Shown here: piece after piece, positions 48,001-64,000 of the stretch
Layout: every line of letters begins with the position of its first letter
Numbering within the stretch: position 1 is the first letter of the stretch
Assembly (NCBI GenBank): GCA_050575255.1
Contig: JBNZDD010013584.1
Coordinates: 1,734,953-1,798,952, forward strand
Source of the DNA: Harriotta raleighana
Taxonomy: Eukaryota
Length of the DNA stretch: 64,000 bases
Direction of reading: 5' to 3'
Made by a program: the position numbers

Positions 48001-51000
48001 TTATGCATTTCATATTGAGAAATTTCTGAAGAAATATCTCAAATTAGTACAAATATGTGTTTAGATTTCTGGTTTGCTAAGAAAATTAGAACCAGAATTA
48101 CATTTGTATTTTTTTTCACAGAAGGCTAATAGAAACTAATCATAATGCTTCTGGTAAGTGTATAAACACTGATTTATAGAGATGAAAGGGTGGCTAGCTA
48201 CTAAGTAATTCTCATGTTACAGTTCATCCGATTTCATTGTTCTACTTTTCCATTTAAAAAAAACTGTTTAACTAAGCATGTGTGCAGTATATCAAGCTTT
48301 AAATAATTATTATTTTAATGGATCTATGATAAGCACATTATGAAAATGGTTCTGAATAACTTTTCTTTACTTTAATCATTGAATTTAAATATTACAAAAA
48401 TATTCCTAAATTGTATTTTGGATTGCAACTAACAAACCTCCCATAATTCTGTTTGTTTATACTTAACTCTAGGCATTCATAATCATTTCTGTCATTTATG
48501 CCAACAGTAAGTATTTATTTTGGTCTTTAAAGAAATGAATCTTCATGAATCAATTTAAAAAATAATCCAAATCTGGTTATAACTCAATTGTTATTTCTGA
48601 TTTCAGGCTGTGATTCCACTTCTTCAAAGATGGGTAGGTGTTGAGCCAGGGTGTGTAGGAATACTCTGGACATTCAAAACAAAATAAAAAGTTTATTTTT
48701 TCTTGATGTAAGTTTATGATTTTTCAAGACACGATAAGCAGTCTTCAATTATTTTGGTACCAGGTAAACATTTGACATCTGCTCTAGATATCAAAGATTT
48801 ATAGGTGGACATATAACTCTGGCAAAATTAATTAGCAAATGGTATTGTGTCTAGTGTATTGCTCATTACTTTATTTGGCAGGCTGTAGAAACACTGATTC
48901 ACAAGCACACTAGTCTAAGAGATGAAGAGGATCCCAGTGCTCAAAACTTGCATATGACTGAAATGCGCAGGAAGGCTGAATGAACTATGAGGCATAGCCC
49001 ATATTCCAATTCCACTTCACTCCCTTTTAAAGAATAGATTTCAAGAAGCCGGGTCTTTAAATGCATCATACGAAGATTTAAACACAAAGATTCTGATCTC
49101 AAGATAATGTCTACCCTTTTGTTTTGTCCAAAGATTCCCAAAGGTACAACTTTACCCCTGAGAAGGAACAAATGTATTGCAATGAATATAAGAGAACAGA
49201 TCCTGGCAACATTCCAACGATCTGTTGCTTACTCCAAGCTGATGCAGGAGAATCCTTTGAAGGCCAAATTATACTCTTTGGTTTAATGTCTTTCTTTAAT
49301 ATACTTTTCTAGATTCAGAGAGTTGTTATACAATATGGTTCGACCGTGATGATCCTTCTGGAGAAGGAGACTTTGAGACGGTGACACATATCAAAAAAGA
49401 TTACCCTGGTGAACTGTGTGACAAACCTATTTACTGTGAAGTTCAAACAACCCATGGAACTCCTGCAGAACTCACAGGAGATAATATTGAACTGTAAATA
49501 TTCATCTTGATTGTTTTAGCTTAATAAATAAATTTTCCTAAATTATGTTTTTATCTATAAGTCAATGATTTCTAAATACATTACTGTATATTCCTTAACA
49601 ATATTTCTGCATGGTAACAGCTTGCATTTATAAAGCACACTTCATGTAGGGTAGAGTCTCACAGAACTTGAGAGTGGTGGAGTCTGATATCGAGACGGGG
49701 GTAGGGAAGGGGAGCTGACCGTAAGCACGATCAAAAAGAAATGTCTTTAGGCGGGATTTTAAAATGGGGAAGGAGGGGGCAAGGCTAAGGAATTGAGGTA
49801 GAGATTTCCAGTTTCAGGGCATAGTGCCTAAAAACACAACCACTAGTGGTGAAGCAGACAGAAGAGGGGGCTGAAGCCAGCCAGGCATAAGCATCGGGTG
49901 GTAGAGTGGGGCATAAGCAAATCAGATAGATTGGGAGGTGCAAGGGAATTAAGGGATTGGAAAACAAGTGAAAAGATCTTGAAATCAACCTGTTTGGTTA
50001 TTAGGAATTGGTGGAGTCTGATAAGGACTGGTGTGATGGGGATACAGAATTTTGTGAGGGTCAGTATCCAGGCAGCGGAGGTTTAAATTAATTGAATTTT
50101 GTGCATTGGAATAGTCCAGCGGAGAAGTGGTGAAGGCGTAGATAAGGGTTTTGGCTGCTTTGGTTGTGAGTGCGAATGCCCTCTGCGAATGCACGTTCAT
50201 AACACTGCCTGTAGGCATTCTGCTCTATAAGTGGGTTCCCATGATGTACATCTGGTAATACACTGCTGTGATAGTTTACTAATGTGAGTCACATTTGTAG
50301 AGAGATCATTAATGATTTTGATGTGAATACAACATCAACGAAATTACCTTTGTCTAGCATCTTTCACGTCGAGAGGACATCCCAATAAATTGCAAGCCTC
50401 ACAGCTGAAGAAAATGCTTTCTTTCCATTTCCTGATTTGACTATTCAAGTAAATGCTCAGATTTGTCCTTTGAATGGACCTGACCAGATAATGAAATCCA
50501 ATGTGTTGGTGTTGTGCAAAGGCTTTACTAAGAAATCAGACTTTTGCTACAACTGGATAATGAAATATACTGATCCGAGATTGTGATATTCCGTTATTAT
50601 GTTGAGAAAATCAGTGCTATTTAATTTGTTTCTTGTATAGCTGTACTGTCTTCGAAGGATTTTCTTGTGAAAATAAACAGCAGGAAGGGAAACATTGTCA
50701 AGATTATAAAATACGATTCAAGTGTCCTAAAGGCTTCTGTAATGTTGGTGAGTAATTTGGATTTATTAAATATTATTTACTATCTAGATTGTGATTTCTT
50801 GTTTGTTGTCAATTCAGCTCTCTTCAATACCCTTTCCTAGATTCAGACTCTTCAGACACTTCTAACACTTCAGATGTTTGTTACACTGAATGGTTTGACT
50901 GTGATAATCCATCTGGAGATGGAGACTATGAGACTGTGGTAGATATCAGAGAGGAATATCCTCATCAGCTGTGCAAAAATCCTATTTCTTGTGAGGTTGA

Positions 51001-63000: not shown

Positions 63001-64000
63001 GGCAGAAGACATTTTTACATAGCTTTTTGGATTATTTTGAATACTTTTGTAAATTTAATTTAGTTGGTGTTATCTCTAGACTTTTTCCAATAGGTATGAA
63101 TCCTTATAAATGGATTATGGTAGCTATGGTTGTAATAATTTATGTTTTTGCTCTACGTTTCTTGAGTGCCTAAAGCAATAGAGGATAAATTCTGAAAACT
63201 GAAGGTTGGGGCCTTCACCAAAATTATATACAATTATAAAATTCAGAATTATAGTAAAATTGTGTTTGGTTCTTCCATAGCTGTACTGTCATTGAAGGTT
63301 TTATTTGTGAAAATAAACACCAGCAAGGAAAAGACTGTAAAGATTATAAAATACGATTTAAATGTCCTGAAGACTTCTGTAATGTTGGTGAGTAATTTGG
63401 ATTTATTAAATACCATTCAGTATTCAGATTATAGTATTTCCTTTGTTGTCAGCTGAAGTCACTTCCTTTATTATGCATATTTAGATTCAGACGTTTGTTA
63501 TACACAATGGTTTGAACATGATGACACTTCTAGAAGTGGACAATATGAGACTATAACAGATCTCAGAAAGGAATACCCTGATCAGCTCTGTGATGAACCT
63601 ATTTCTTGCGAAGTTCAGACAACCGAAGGAACTCCAGTGGCCATCGAGGGCGATACTATTAAACTGTAAATTAATCTTGGTTATTTTCTCATACAAAGTA
63701 TTTTACCTGATTTTATTATTTAGAGCAAGGTCATTAGTGGTCTGAACTTCATGAATTTATATGATTCTCACACAGCTGTATTATCCTCAGAGGAGTTTCT
63801 TGCCCAAGTGGACACCACAATAAAAGACAATGCAATAATTATAAAATACGATTTAAATGTCCAAAAGACTTTTGTAATGGTGGTGAGTATATTTGATGTA
63901 TTTTGAACTATGATAGAAAGTCCATTATCCACATTGTTTGGTCGATTGTTTGGGGGATATAGAAATGATACCTGTAATGGATTGTATAAAATACTACTTC

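What the first reader, a model, noticed from the sequence alone, without database searches (positions are those of the whole stretch)
48122..64000. A natural 'poly-CysD' secreted protein: signal peptide plus >=8 back-to-back mucin CysD/WxxW domains with no mucin or CILP scaffold
Seen: 19 phase-compatible exons give 804 uninterrupted codons. They encode a ~15-aa signal peptide, a ~10-aa linker, then eight ~96-aa domains with 8 invariant Cys each, joined by linkers of only a few residues. Known: CysD domains occur in gel-forming mucins (MUC2, MUC5AC, MUC5B) after N-terminal VWD assemblies and interspersed in PTS regions, where they are thought to act as non-covalent cross-linkers; CILP1/2 carry one related domain before a TSP1 repeat. 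Here there is no VWD, PTS or TSP1 in the window. Inference: a stand-alone multivalent, acidic CysD chain that could act as a mucus, jelly or matrix cross-linker. Automated pipelines would probably mislabel it mucin-like or CILP-like, and the ORF track catches only fragments.
Basis: partly seen in the sequence, partly recalled or inferred. Interest (0 to 1): 0.88.

Follow-up and report, generated by a model that had tools for sequence, protein, structure and literature searches.

The report
Chimaera poly-CysD (cupula-type) secreted protein gene
This is a real gene for a secreted protein made only of back-to-back mucin-type CysD domains, but it belongs to a fish family already described in zebrafish, where it helps build the jelly cap of lateral-line sense organs.

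Summary
On the + strand, 19 exons with canonical AG/GT sites add up to 2413 nt, which is 804 codons plus 1 nt. There are three leader micro-exons and eight exon pairs, A (181-208 nt) plus B (107 nt), one pair per ~96-aa domain. All 8 A exons and all 8 B exons match Pfam PF13330 above its cut-off. Each domain keeps 8 Cys. Repeat copies evolve with dN/dS of 0.36-0.46.

A ninth A-exon copy lies in an exact 1220-bp duplicate next to a single N. It is probably an assembly artefact.

The novelty claim fails. Shark and ray proteins of 591-1930 aa with only PF13330 are the best hits. They carry the names 'si:dkey-205h13.2', 'mucin-5AC' or 'CILP1'. The closest hits are Callorhinchus milii fragments, up to 90% identical.

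Zebrafish si:dkey-205h13.2 has a signal peptide plus six CysD domains. It was characterised in 2025 as a neuromast support-cell product needed for full cupula length, and that paper lists skate (27 CysD) and catshark (19 CysD) homologues (PMC11765562).

Verdict: a new holocephalan member of a known kind. The C-terminus lies beyond the window, and expression is untested.

The parts
48145..48153 (+). Leader exon 1: ATG plus 2 codons (MLL), donor gtaagt. An in-frame TAG lies upstream at 48130.
48473..48506 (+). Leader exon 2: the hydrophobic core of the presumed signal peptide (AFIIISVIYAN plus 1 nt), AG acceptor, gtaagt donor.
   Evidence: resembles shark N-termini MILIFIITSILCTNS
48607..48633 (+). 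Leader exon 3: completes a Ser codon, then CDSTSSKM, and leaves 1 nt over.
49313..49493 (+). Domain 1, exon A (first ~60 aa of the CysD domain; YxxW, an acidic DxDxPSGxGDxE stretch, 3 Cys).
50641..50747 (+). Domain 1, exon B (last ~35 aa of the CysD domain; 5 Cys, DYKIRF motif).
50841..51048 (+). Domain 2, exon A. It is 27 nt longer than the others (Ser/Thr/Asp-rich mini-linker) and has one extra Cys (WFDCD).
52195..52301 (+). Domain 2, exon B.
52398..52578 (+). Domain 3, exon A.
53376..53482 (+). Domain 3, exon B.
53576..53768 (+). Domain 4, exon A (193 nt). The acceptor was corrected by hand from the script's first pick.
56572..56678 (+). Domain 4, exon B. It follows a 2803-nt intron.
56776..56956 (+). 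Domain 5, exon A.
   Evidence: pairs with domain 1 of C. milii P0011 in the tree
57769..57875 (+). Domain 5, exon B.
58484..58664 (+). Domain 6, exon A.
   Evidence: 90% identical to P0011 residues 108-168
59314..60533 (+). Exact 1220-bp copy of 58093-59312, joined to it by the single N at 59313. It holds a redundant copy of domain-6 exon A (59705-59885). Probably an assembly artefact and not part of the transcript model.
61506..61612 (+). Domain 6, exon B.
61702..61882 (+). Domain 7, exon A.
63281..63387 (+). Domain 7, exon B.
63485..63665 (+). Domain 8, exon A. This is the most divergent copy: WFEHDDTSRSGQYE replaces the usual WFDRDxPSGxGDxE.
63776..63882 (+). Domain 8, exon B. It ends in a normal gtgagt donor 118 nt before the window ends, so the gene probably continues.

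Best explanation
The locus is the 5' part of the chimaera (holocephalan) orthologue of the fish gene si:dkey-205h13.2. Ma et al. 2025 call this gene 'muc5AC', although it is not the gel-forming mucin.

The gene encodes a secreted, acidic protein. A short signal peptide is followed directly by a string of ~96-aa CysD/WxxW beta-sandwich domains. At least 8 domains are present here, each built from one A exon plus one B exon, with linkers of only a few residues. There are no VWD, PTS or CK modules.

Likely mode of action: the protein is secreted by lateral-line support cells and acts as a multivalent, non-covalent cross-linker and organiser of the glycoprotein gel of the neuromast cupula. It may do the same in related sensory gels.

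Shown here: gene structure, domain identity, constraint on the coding sequence, family membership and the fold of the C. milii counterpart.

Inferred from the zebrafish knockout and from engineered poly-CYS proteins: secretion, tissue, Ca2+ binding and the gel-building role.
For: Gene model. 19 phase-compatible exons give 2413 nt, and all sites are AG/GT.

Domain identity. PF13330 is matched by 8 of 8 A exons and 8 of 8 B exons, with the two shown members covering complementary halves of the profile. The B-exon profile matches the solved MUC2 and MUC5B CysD domains.

Constraint. dN/dS is below 1 in 28 of 28 A-exon pairs and 27 of 28 B-exon pairs, with ratios of means of 0.46 and 0.36. There is no stop in 765 codons.

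Relatives.
- An A exon used as query finds 14 proteins. The long ones (Mustelus 1930 aa, Scyliorhinus 1865 aa, Stegostoma 1658 aa) carry PF13330 as the only real domain, and two of them are named si:dkey-205h13.2.
- My motif count gives 18-21 domains in these three proteins, about one per 96 aa. They start MILIFIITSILCTNS..., apart from an N-terminal extension in the Scyliorhinus model, and end right after the last domain.
- In a tree of A-exon segments (62 rows, 56 columns), the 8 window domains group with the 6 C. milii fragment domains (SH-aLRT 98). They sit inside a chondrichthyan group (97), apart from Danio, gar and coelacanth (97). There are one-to-one pairs such as window domain 5 with P0011 domain 1.

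Fold. An AlphaFold model of the C. milii fragment P0011 (mean pLDDT 88.1) gives 7 Foldseek PDB matches at E <= 0.001. All 7 are mucin CysD structures, for example MUC5B 8oer_I with target TM 0.73.

Function by homology.
- PMC11765562 reports that zebrafish si:dkey-205h13.2 has a signal peptide plus 6 CysD domains. It is expressed in neuromast support cells, and mutants have shorter cupulae and a delayed startle response.
- PMC6861317 reports that an engineered protein of 12 consecutive CYS domains stiffens mucus gels.
- PMC7599080 reports that MUC2 CysD1 is a small beta sandwich with two bound Ca2+ ions.
Against: - There is no expression or junction evidence for this species.
- The window ends before the C-terminus, so downstream non-CysD modules cannot be excluded here.
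- The signal peptide is inferred by eye from three micro-exons, and the first has only 9 coding nt.
- Ma et al. could not show the zebrafish protein in the cupula itself, and the mutant cupula is only about 20% shorter. The structural role is therefore suggestive rather than proven.
- The A-exon profile alone found no solved structure at E <= 0.01. Its best hit was MUC5AC CysD7 (8ov0) at E = 0.16.
- The first Trp of the name-giving WxxW motif is Tyr in 8 of 8 domains.
- The window exons are only 74-90% identical to the C. milii fragments. A recent paralogue rather than an orthologue from a sister species is not excluded.
- The fold was tested on the C. milii fragment, not on the window's own joined domain.
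Confidence: 0.78

Rival explanations
1. The gene encodes the same kind of protein, but it is a chondrichthyan or holocephalan paralogue used elsewhere. Candidate sites are skin or gill mucus, the gel of the ampullae of Lorenzini, or egg or oviducal jelly, rather than the lateral-line cupula.
For: - Domain arrays are much larger in cartilaginous fishes (18-27 domains) than in zebrafish (6).
- Mobula has two PF13330-rich models on what appears to be one contig: P0005 and P0026 list the same longest-contig length.
- No tissue data exist for this species.
- The composition of the ampullary gel is unsettled (PMC8379299, passages).
Against: - NCBI names the shark models after the zebrafish gene.
- Ma et al. 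list skate and catshark proteins as homologues of the neuromast gene.
- The domain tree follows species groups.
- Only one such gene is seen in this window.
Confidence: 0.15
2. These exons are an internal CysD-rich stretch of a larger gel-forming mucin or CILP-type gene. The missing VWD/PTS/CK or TSP1 parts would lie outside the window or in exons too small to detect.
For: - The window is cut 118 nt after the last B exon, which ends in a normal donor.
- The upstream screen only covered stop-to-stop frames of at least 70 aa, so short exons would be missed.
Against: - The leader resembles the N-termini of the shark proteins, which begin with a signal peptide and hold only PF13330 along 1658-1930 aa.
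- Among 140 upstream frames, Pfam found only DUF4371 (2), RVT_1 (1) and two marginal hits.
- tblastn with proteins that combine WxxW with VWD/C8, EGF/VWC or transglutaminase gave 248 of 248 HSPs inside the WxxW exon region. None came from the VWD or C8 parts of P0204.
- An in-frame stop lies 15 nt upstream of the ATG.
Confidence: 0.04
3. This is a decaying or unexpressed tandem array, that is, a pseudogene.
For: - There is no expression evidence.
- Domain 8 has lost several residues of the acidic motif.
- The introns contain transposon insertions.
Against: - 16 of 16 domain exons are open, and all splice sites are canonical.
- 8 Cys are invariant per domain.
- dN/dS is below 1 in 55 of 56 pairs.
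- The C. milii counterparts are colinear.
Confidence: 0.03

Closest known systems
Zebrafish si:dkey-205h13.2 ('muc5AC' / 'fish Mucin-5AC' of Ma et al. 2025, PMC11765562) and its named orthologues in bony fishes
   Same: - A signal peptide is followed only by tandem CysD domains, with no VWD, PTS or CK.
- PF13330 is the sole family.
- Window exons are 38-59% identical to the Danio aesculapii protein P0040.
   Different: - Zebrafish has 6 domains; here there are at least 8, with the end unseen.
- Bony-fish domains form a separate clade from the chondrichthyan ones.
- Expression and phenotype are known only for zebrafish.
Predicted elasmobranch proteins: Scyliorhinus canicula and Stegostoma tigrinum 'si:dkey-205h13.2', Mustelus asterias LOC144510017, and Heptranchias and Cetorhinus 'mucin-5AC'
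   Same: - The architecture is the same, and the signal peptide is similar (MILIFIITSILCTNS against MLL/AFIIISVIYAN).
- The A/B domain pattern and the 8 Cys match.
- Identity per exon is 44-64%.
   Different: - They have 18-21 domains in the three long models; P0007 has 7 and P0016 has 6.
- The position of the first Trp of WxxW is Lys in sharks and Tyr here.
- Holocephalan domains form their own clade (SH-aLRT 98), so the arrays were amplified or homogenised separately.
Callorhinchus milii fragments P0011 ('cartilage intermediate layer protein 1', 168 aa), P0012 and P0013 (UniProt 'WxxW domain-containing protein')
   Same: - They are colinear with window domains 2-6.
- Identity is up to 90%.
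   Different: - They are fragmentary and mislabelled models. P0012 even ends in SINE-derived sequence.
- The window gives a longer, cleaner model.
- Identity below 100% points to another holocephalan species or a recent paralogue.
CysD domains of the gel-forming mucins MUC2, MUC5AC and MUC5B (PDB 6tm6, 8ck2, 8ov0, 8oer, 8s03)
   Same: - They belong to the same Pfam family and have the same fold.
- The acidic D-x-D-x-P...G-D-x-E stretch aligns with the mucin sequences.
   Different: - Mucin CysDs are scattered between long PTS regions and sit behind VWD assemblies.
- Here the domains are contiguous and there is no polymerising module.
- YxxW replaces WxxW.
- The mucins' C-terminal 'CC' is a single Cys here.
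rCYSx12, an engineered protein of 12 consecutive MUC5B CYS domains (PMC6861317, passages read; PMC4431476, search listing only)
   Same: It is a chain made only of CysD domains. It is secreted, associates with mucin and tightens the gel mesh. This is a direct functional analogue.
   Different: It is artificial, with identical copies of a human domain. The natural protein has diverged copies, 54-69% identical to domain 1 over the A exon.
CILP1 / CILP2
   Same: They contain one WxxW domain, and this is the source of the wrong automatic name.
   Different: From recalled knowledge, CILP also has TSP1, Ig and other modules. None was found in the window.

Membership tests
Pfam PF13330 (Mucin2_WxxW / CysD domain) | The HMM match is above the gathering score. 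| tested here: met
   8 of 8 A exons match (best E = 1.5e-9; the member shown scores 36.9 bits against a 22.4 cut-off). 8 of 8 B exons match (best E = 5e-7; the member shown scores 29.7 bits). The two shown members cover profile positions 2-57 and 59-88.
Pfam PF13330 (Mucin2_WxxW / CysD domain) | A literal Trp-x-x-Trp motif is present. | tested here: not met
   All 8 domains read C-Y-T-x-W. The Tyr aligns with the first Trp of MUC5AC, MUC5B and MUC2 CysDs. The second Trp is invariant. Sharks have Lys at this position, while most two-domain relatives keep Trp (consensus CWTxWF).
Pfam PF13330 (Mucin2_WxxW / CysD domain) | The fold is a small beta sandwich like the solved CysD domains. | tested here: inconclusive
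   This was tested only on the C. milii counterpart P0011, not on the window's joined exons. The model has pLDDT 88.1. All 7 of its 7 PDB matches at E <= 0.001 are mucin CysDs, with target TM 0.64-0.74 in the five single-domain chains.
Pfam PF13330 (Mucin2_WxxW / CysD domain) | Two Ca2+ sites are present. | not testable with these tools
   The acidic stretch WFDRDxPSGxGDxE is conserved in 7 of 8 domains and aligns with the mucin CysDs. I could not see which residues bind Ca2+ in MUC2 CysD1, because that information is in a figure of PMC7599080.
Fish si:dkey-205h13.2 family (poly-CysD 'Mucin-5AC' of Ma et al. 2025) | An N-terminal signal peptide is followed directly by the first CysD domain. 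| tested here: met
   The leader exons encode MLL / AFIIISVIYAN / S-CDSTSSKM, and domain 1 follows. The leader is similar to the shark N-termini. SignalP was not available.
Fish si:dkey-205h13.2 family (poly-CysD 'Mucin-5AC' of Ma et al. 2025) | The protein has only tandem CysD domains, with no VWD, PTS or CK. | tested here: inconclusive
   This is met for everything in the window. The C-terminus lies beyond position 64000.
Fish si:dkey-205h13.2 family (poly-CysD 'Mucin-5AC' of Ma et al. 2025) | The closest relatives are members of the family, and the domain tree follows species groups. | tested here: met
   (the top representative is the Stegostoma si:dkey-205h13.2 protein).
Fish si:dkey-205h13.2 family (poly-CysD 'Mucin-5AC' of Ma et al. 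2025) | The gene is expressed in neuromast support cells and has a cupula phenotype. | not testable with these tools
   No transcript or tissue data were available for the source species.
Gel-forming mucins (MUC2/5AC/5B type) | N-terminal VWD-C8-TIL assemblies are present. | tested here: not met
   No VWD, C8 or TIL was found among 140 upstream frames of at least 70 aa. There was no tblastn hit for the VWD or C8 part of P0204. The sensitivity for short exons is low.
Gel-forming mucins (MUC2/5AC/5B type) | Long PTS regions lie between the CysD domains. | tested here: not met
   The linkers between the last Cys of one domain and the first Cys of the next are about 6-15 residues. The longest is a 9-residue Ser/Thr/Asp-rich insert in domain 2.
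Gel-forming mucins (MUC2/5AC/5B type) | A C-terminal VWC/CK dimerisation module is present. | not testable with these tools
   The downstream sequence is outside the window. The shark counterparts end right after the last CysD domain.
CILP1/CILP2 | A single WxxW domain is followed by TSP1 and further modules (recalled). | tested here: not met
   There are eight tandem WxxW domains, and no TSP1 hit was found.

The most novel reading that the evidence does not exclude
In cartilaginous fishes this poly-CysD protein may be more than a cupula component. It could be a general protein scaffold of their sensory gels, namely the lateral-line canal cupulae and the jelly of the ampullae of Lorenzini.

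Three observations fit this reading:
- The domain arrays appear to have been amplified separately in chimaeras and in sharks and rays (clade support 98).
- The arrays reach 18-27 domains.
- The first Trp of WxxW has been lost (Tyr in chimaeras, Lys in sharks), which would remove the presumed C-mannosylation site.

If true, it would give a candidate protein for the unresolved protein component of the ampullary gel.
Probability: 0.12. Interest if true: 0.55.

Novelty: new member of a known kind. Interest (0 to 1): 0.25.

Why it matters
The locus gives a clean gene model for a chimaera member of the poly-CysD family: at least 8 domains at two exons per domain. In the closest listed species (C. 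milii), the models are short fragments, and one of them is mislabelled 'CILP1'.

It extends to holocephalans a family whose only functional study, in zebrafish, links it to the lateral-line cupula.

It also shows that the domain arrays of chimaeras and of sharks and rays form separate clades.

The model is useful for re-annotation and as a probe for work on the cupula or ampullary gel in cartilaginous fishes. It does not reveal a new kind of protein.

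Tried and rejected
- PDB search with the A-exon profile. It found nothing at E <= 0.01. At E <= 10 the only relevant hit was MUC5AC CysD7 at 0.16. The B-exon profile and the natural fragment P0011 did reach the mucin CysDs.
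- Domain 8 and the shark third-last domain. I asked whether window domain 8 (WFEHDD) corresponds to the conserved third-last shark domain (WFDHDD), which would have predicted two more domains downstream. The tree puts domain 8 with the other holocephalan domains, so the total number of domains cannot be inferred.
- Tandem Repeats Finder. It cannot see the exon-pair unit because the period exceeds its 500-nt limit. It returned only a 21-nt repeat at 55719-55767.
- tblastn hits outside the gene. There were 25 of 652 HSPs outside the WxxW exons. All came from residues 163-216 of P0012, a SINE-derived tail of that model, and they hit SINE copies rather than WxxW exons.
- The eLife paper PMC7806267. 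It was listed for 'dkey-205h13.2', but its main text has no occurrence. The term may sit in material I cannot see.
- No complex prediction was run, because I make no specific binding claim.
- Not done for lack of tools or data: SignalP, RNA-seq and synteny.
- Supplements are closed. Supplementary Figure S3 of PMC11765562 and the 'Online Resources' of PMC6861317 were not seen.
- Literature on the holocephalan gene. I found no paper on it in these searches: 'dkey-205h13.2' (2 papers), 'WxxW domain' (3), 'CysD'+'cupula' (1), and 'ampullae of Lorenzini'+'mucin'+'proteom' (12).
- I do not take the contig for human.

Full report
WHAT IS THERE

Between 48145 and 63882 on the + strand the window holds a regular mosaic gene.

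The leader consists of three micro-exons:
- 48145-48153 encodes ATG-CTT-CTG.
- 48473-48506 encodes AFIIISVIYAN plus 1 nt.
- 48607-48633 completes a Ser codon, encodes CDSTSSKM and leaves 1 nt over.

Eight exon pairs follow. Each A exon is 181 nt long, except for 208 nt in domain 2 and 193 nt in domain 4. Each A exon starts after ...ag|AT and ends before gtaa[a/c]t. Each B exon is 107 nt long, from ag|[C/T/G]TGT to |gtgagt. The phases are the same in every unit, so A+B units can be duplicated without breaking the frame. Two A exons in a row would break it.

The 19 exons sum to 2413 nt, which is 804 codons plus 1 nt.

Introns from B to A are short. Six are 89-101 nt and one is 608 nt. They are visibly similar between units. 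Introns from A to B are 110-2803 nt as assembled.

THE DUPLICATE

Positions 58093-59312 recur without a single difference at 59314-60533, with the lone N at 59313 between the two copies. The second copy holds a ninth A exon (59705-59885), which cannot be spliced in frame after the first. I read this as an unmerged overlap in the assembly. I left the N untouched.

DOMAIN IDENTITY

I searched the model exon by exon. The joined protein was never built, searched or folded.
- All 8 A exons match Pfam PF13330 (Mucin2_WxxW); the member shown covers profile positions 2-57. All 8 B exons match it too; the member shown covers positions 59-88. The two shown members score 36.9 and 29.7 bits against a cut-off of 22.4.
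- The A exons keep 3 invariant Cys and the B exons keep 5, giving 8 per domain. Domain 2 has one extra Cys.
- The B-exon profile finds the solved CysD domains of MUC2 (6tm6, 8ck2, 6tm2) and MUC5B (8oer).
- The A-exon profile alone finds nothing at E <= 0.01. It reaches MUC5AC CysD7 only at E = 0.16.

As a proxy for the fold I used P0011, a natural Callorhinchus milii fragment that is colinear with window domains 5-6.
- I folded it with an alignment of 37 natural two-domain relatives. The mean pLDDT was 88.1.
- Foldseek against the PDB gave 7 matches at E <= 0.001, and all 7 are mucin CysD structures. The single-domain chains have target TM-scores of 0.64-0.74. MUC2 CysD2 follows at E = 0.013.

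IS IT A LIVE GENE?

The evidence argues against a pseudogene, but there is no transcript evidence.
- There is no stop in the 765 whole codons of the 16 domain exons.
- Among the repeat copies, dN/dS is below 1 in 28 of 28 A-exon pairs and 27 of 28 B-exon pairs. The ratios of means are 0.46 and 0.36.
- Differences are lowest at the second codon position and highest at the third.
- The composition is acidic: D+E = 142 against K+R = 77.

SURROUNDINGS

tblastn with seven family proteins put 627 of 652 HSPs in the exon blocks between 49276 and 63893 (+). The other 25 HSPs all come from a SINE-derived tail of the model P0012 and hit SINE copies.

I screened 140 stop-to-stop frames of at least 70 aa in 1-48100, on both strands, against Pfam.
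- The only matches were DUF4371 (2 frames, remnants of a mobile element at 33972-34604, - strand), RVT_1 (1 frame, 21896-22456, - strand) and two marginal hits.
- No VWD, C8, TIL or TSP1 was found.

Five multi-domain WxxW proteins from the representative library were used as a further control. They include one with VWD+C8+F5/8C, one with EGF+VWC and one with a transglutaminase core. They gave 248 of 248 tblastn HSPs inside the gene's exon region, and none came from the VWD or C8 parts of P0204.

These screens would miss short exons.

An in-frame TAG lies 15 nt upstream of the ATG.

RELATIVES

An A exon used as query (option 'longer') returned 14 proteins.
- The long ones are Mustelus asterias (1930 aa), Scyliorhinus canicula 'si:dkey-205h13.2 isoform X1' (1865 aa), Stegostoma tigrinum 'si:dkey-205h13.2' (1658 aa) and Leucoraja (1037 aa).
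- Shorter 'mucin-5AC' models and three C. milii fragments also appear. One fragment is named 'cartilage intermediate layer protein 1'.

By my motif count, the three longest models hold 18-21 domains, about one per 96 residues.
- They begin MILIFIITSILCTNS..., a hydrophobic leader like the window's. The Scyliorhinus model has an extra N-terminal extension in front of it.
- They end right after the last domain.

A search with the Heptranchias protein listed 120 of 151 hits.
- Most are PF13330-only proteins of bony fishes, many of them named si:dkey-205h13.2.
- Others come from coelacanth, a caecilian, axolotl, lizards, amphioxus, tunicates, a hemichordate, a sponge and a limpet.

The exhaustive profile search found 639 clusters at E <= 0.001, 226 at E <= 1e-10 and 55 at E <= 1e-30.
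- The Stegostoma protein is on top, with 18 stretches in 1658 aa.
- By my count from that table, 28 of the 150 listed proteins have 4 or more stretches. Of these, 21 have about one stretch per 96-120 residues.

The architecture is therefore common in databases.

PLACEMENT

Identity of window exons to other proteins:

| Compared protein | Identity to window exons |
|---|---|
| C. milii fragments | up to 90% |
| Catshark (P0002) | 45-62% |
| Danio aesculapii (P0040) | 38-59% |

I built a quick maximum-likelihood tree of A-exon segments only (62 rows, 56 columns, and many forks unresolved).
- It groups the 8 window domains with the 6 C. milii domains (SH-aLRT 98).
- This group sits inside a chondrichthyan group (97), apart from Danio, gar and coelacanth (97).
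- There are one-to-one pairs: window domain 2 with P0013 domain 1 (86), and window domain 5 with P0011 domain 1 (89).

The source is thus a holocephalan close to, but not identical with, the C. milii reference. A recent paralogue is the alternative. The holocephalan and elasmobranch arrays were amplified or homogenised separately.

WHAT IS KNOWN

Ma et al. 2025 (Int J Mol Sci 26:708, PMC11765562; I read the abstract, passages, the Discussion and the Table 1 text) report the following for zebrafish si:dkey-205h13.2, which they rename muc5AC:
- It has a signal peptide (residues 1-24) plus six CysD domains, with no VWD or PTS.
- Homologues have 2-27 CysD domains in bony and cartilaginous fishes. 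Their Table 1 gives 27 for 'little skate Amblyraja radiata' and 19 for catshark.
- It is expressed specifically in neuromast support cells.
- Morphants and a CRISPR mutant have shorter cupulae (38.2 against 47.4 um) and a delayed vibration startle response.
- The authors could not visualise the protein in the cupula.

Javitt et al. 2020 (PMC7599080, passages) describe MUC2 CysD1 as a small beta sandwich with two bound Ca2+ ions and a WXXW Trp-Arg/Lys ladder.

Demouveaux et al. 2019 (PMC6861317, passages) show that an engineered chain of 12 CYS domains is secreted, associates with MUC5AC and tightens the mucus mesh.

HOW IT MOST LIKELY WORKS

Shown here: a gene for a leader plus at least 8 contiguous CysD domains under purifying selection, belonging to the si:dkey-205h13.2 family.

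Inferred:
- The leader is cleaved and the chain is secreted.
- Each domain forms four disulfides. The even count of 8 Cys and the absence of a VWD or CK polymerising module suggest non-covalent action.
- Each domain probably binds Ca2+ through the conserved acidic stretch WFDRDxPSGxGDxE. This stretch is intact in 7 of 8 domains and aligns with the mucin CysDs.
- The multivalent chain would cross-link or organise the glycoprotein gel of the neuromast cupula.

DIFFERENCES WORTH NOTING

- The first Trp of WxxW is Tyr in 8 of 8 domains. It is Lys in sharks. The putative C-mannosylation Trp is therefore absent.
- The mucins' C-terminal 'CC' is a single Cys here.
- Domain 8 has lost part of the acidic stretch.

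VERDICT

This is a new holocephalan member of a known, recently characterised family. Its value is mainly for annotation and as a lead for work on sensory gels in cartilaginous fishes.

Noticed in passing
window 58093-60533 (N at 59313): An exact 1220-bp tandem duplicate is separated by a single N. It is probably an unmerged overlap of contig ends, and it creates a spurious extra exon copy.
   Followed up: yes
window 33972-34604, - strand: Two open frames match DUF4371 below the gathering score (E = 1.2e-6 and 2e-3). From recalled knowledge, this domain is typical of hAT/ZMYM-type transposase relics. They look like remnants of a DNA transposon.
   Followed up: partly
window 21896-22456, - strand: A 187-aa frame has a weak reverse-transcriptase match (RVT_1, E = 5.6e-4). 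It is probably a LINE fragment. A similar LINE-tail-like frame lies in the domain-4 intron (54393-54965, - strand) but has no Pfam hit.
   Followed up: partly
window 25770-25832 (+), 37786-37852 (-), 42956-43027 (+), 56115-56186 (+); many further copies, e.g. 5047-5280, 20560-20889, 44651-44938: There are four tRNA-like Rfam hits just above threshold, and many frames share a '...NIQSIHFTVYSVKRFE...KCKDYYYY' type translation. These are tRNA-derived SINE copies scattered through the window and through the gene's introns. One such piece was even incorporated into the C. milii protein model P0012.
   Followed up: partly
window about 3690-6050, with a 196-N gap at 4722-4917: This is a low-complexity stretch with strong strand bias (GC skew -0.375) whose frames translate to long His/Thr/Pro/Ser/Cys-rich runs. 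It surrounds the largest gap in the window.
   Followed up: no
window 1-48100: No convincing cellular gene was seen in the 48 kb upstream of the poly-CysD gene in a screen of frames of at least 70 aa. Genes with small exons would have been missed.
   Followed up: partly
window 50841-51048 (domain 2, exon A) and 48607-48633 (leader exon 3): There are two Cys outside the 8-per-domain pattern. One replaces the Arg of WFDRD in domain 2; the C. milii counterpart keeps Arg. The other lies just after the presumed signal peptide. Some shark N-termini also have an extra Cys there. Whether these Cys pair with each other or link chains is unknown.
   Followed up: no
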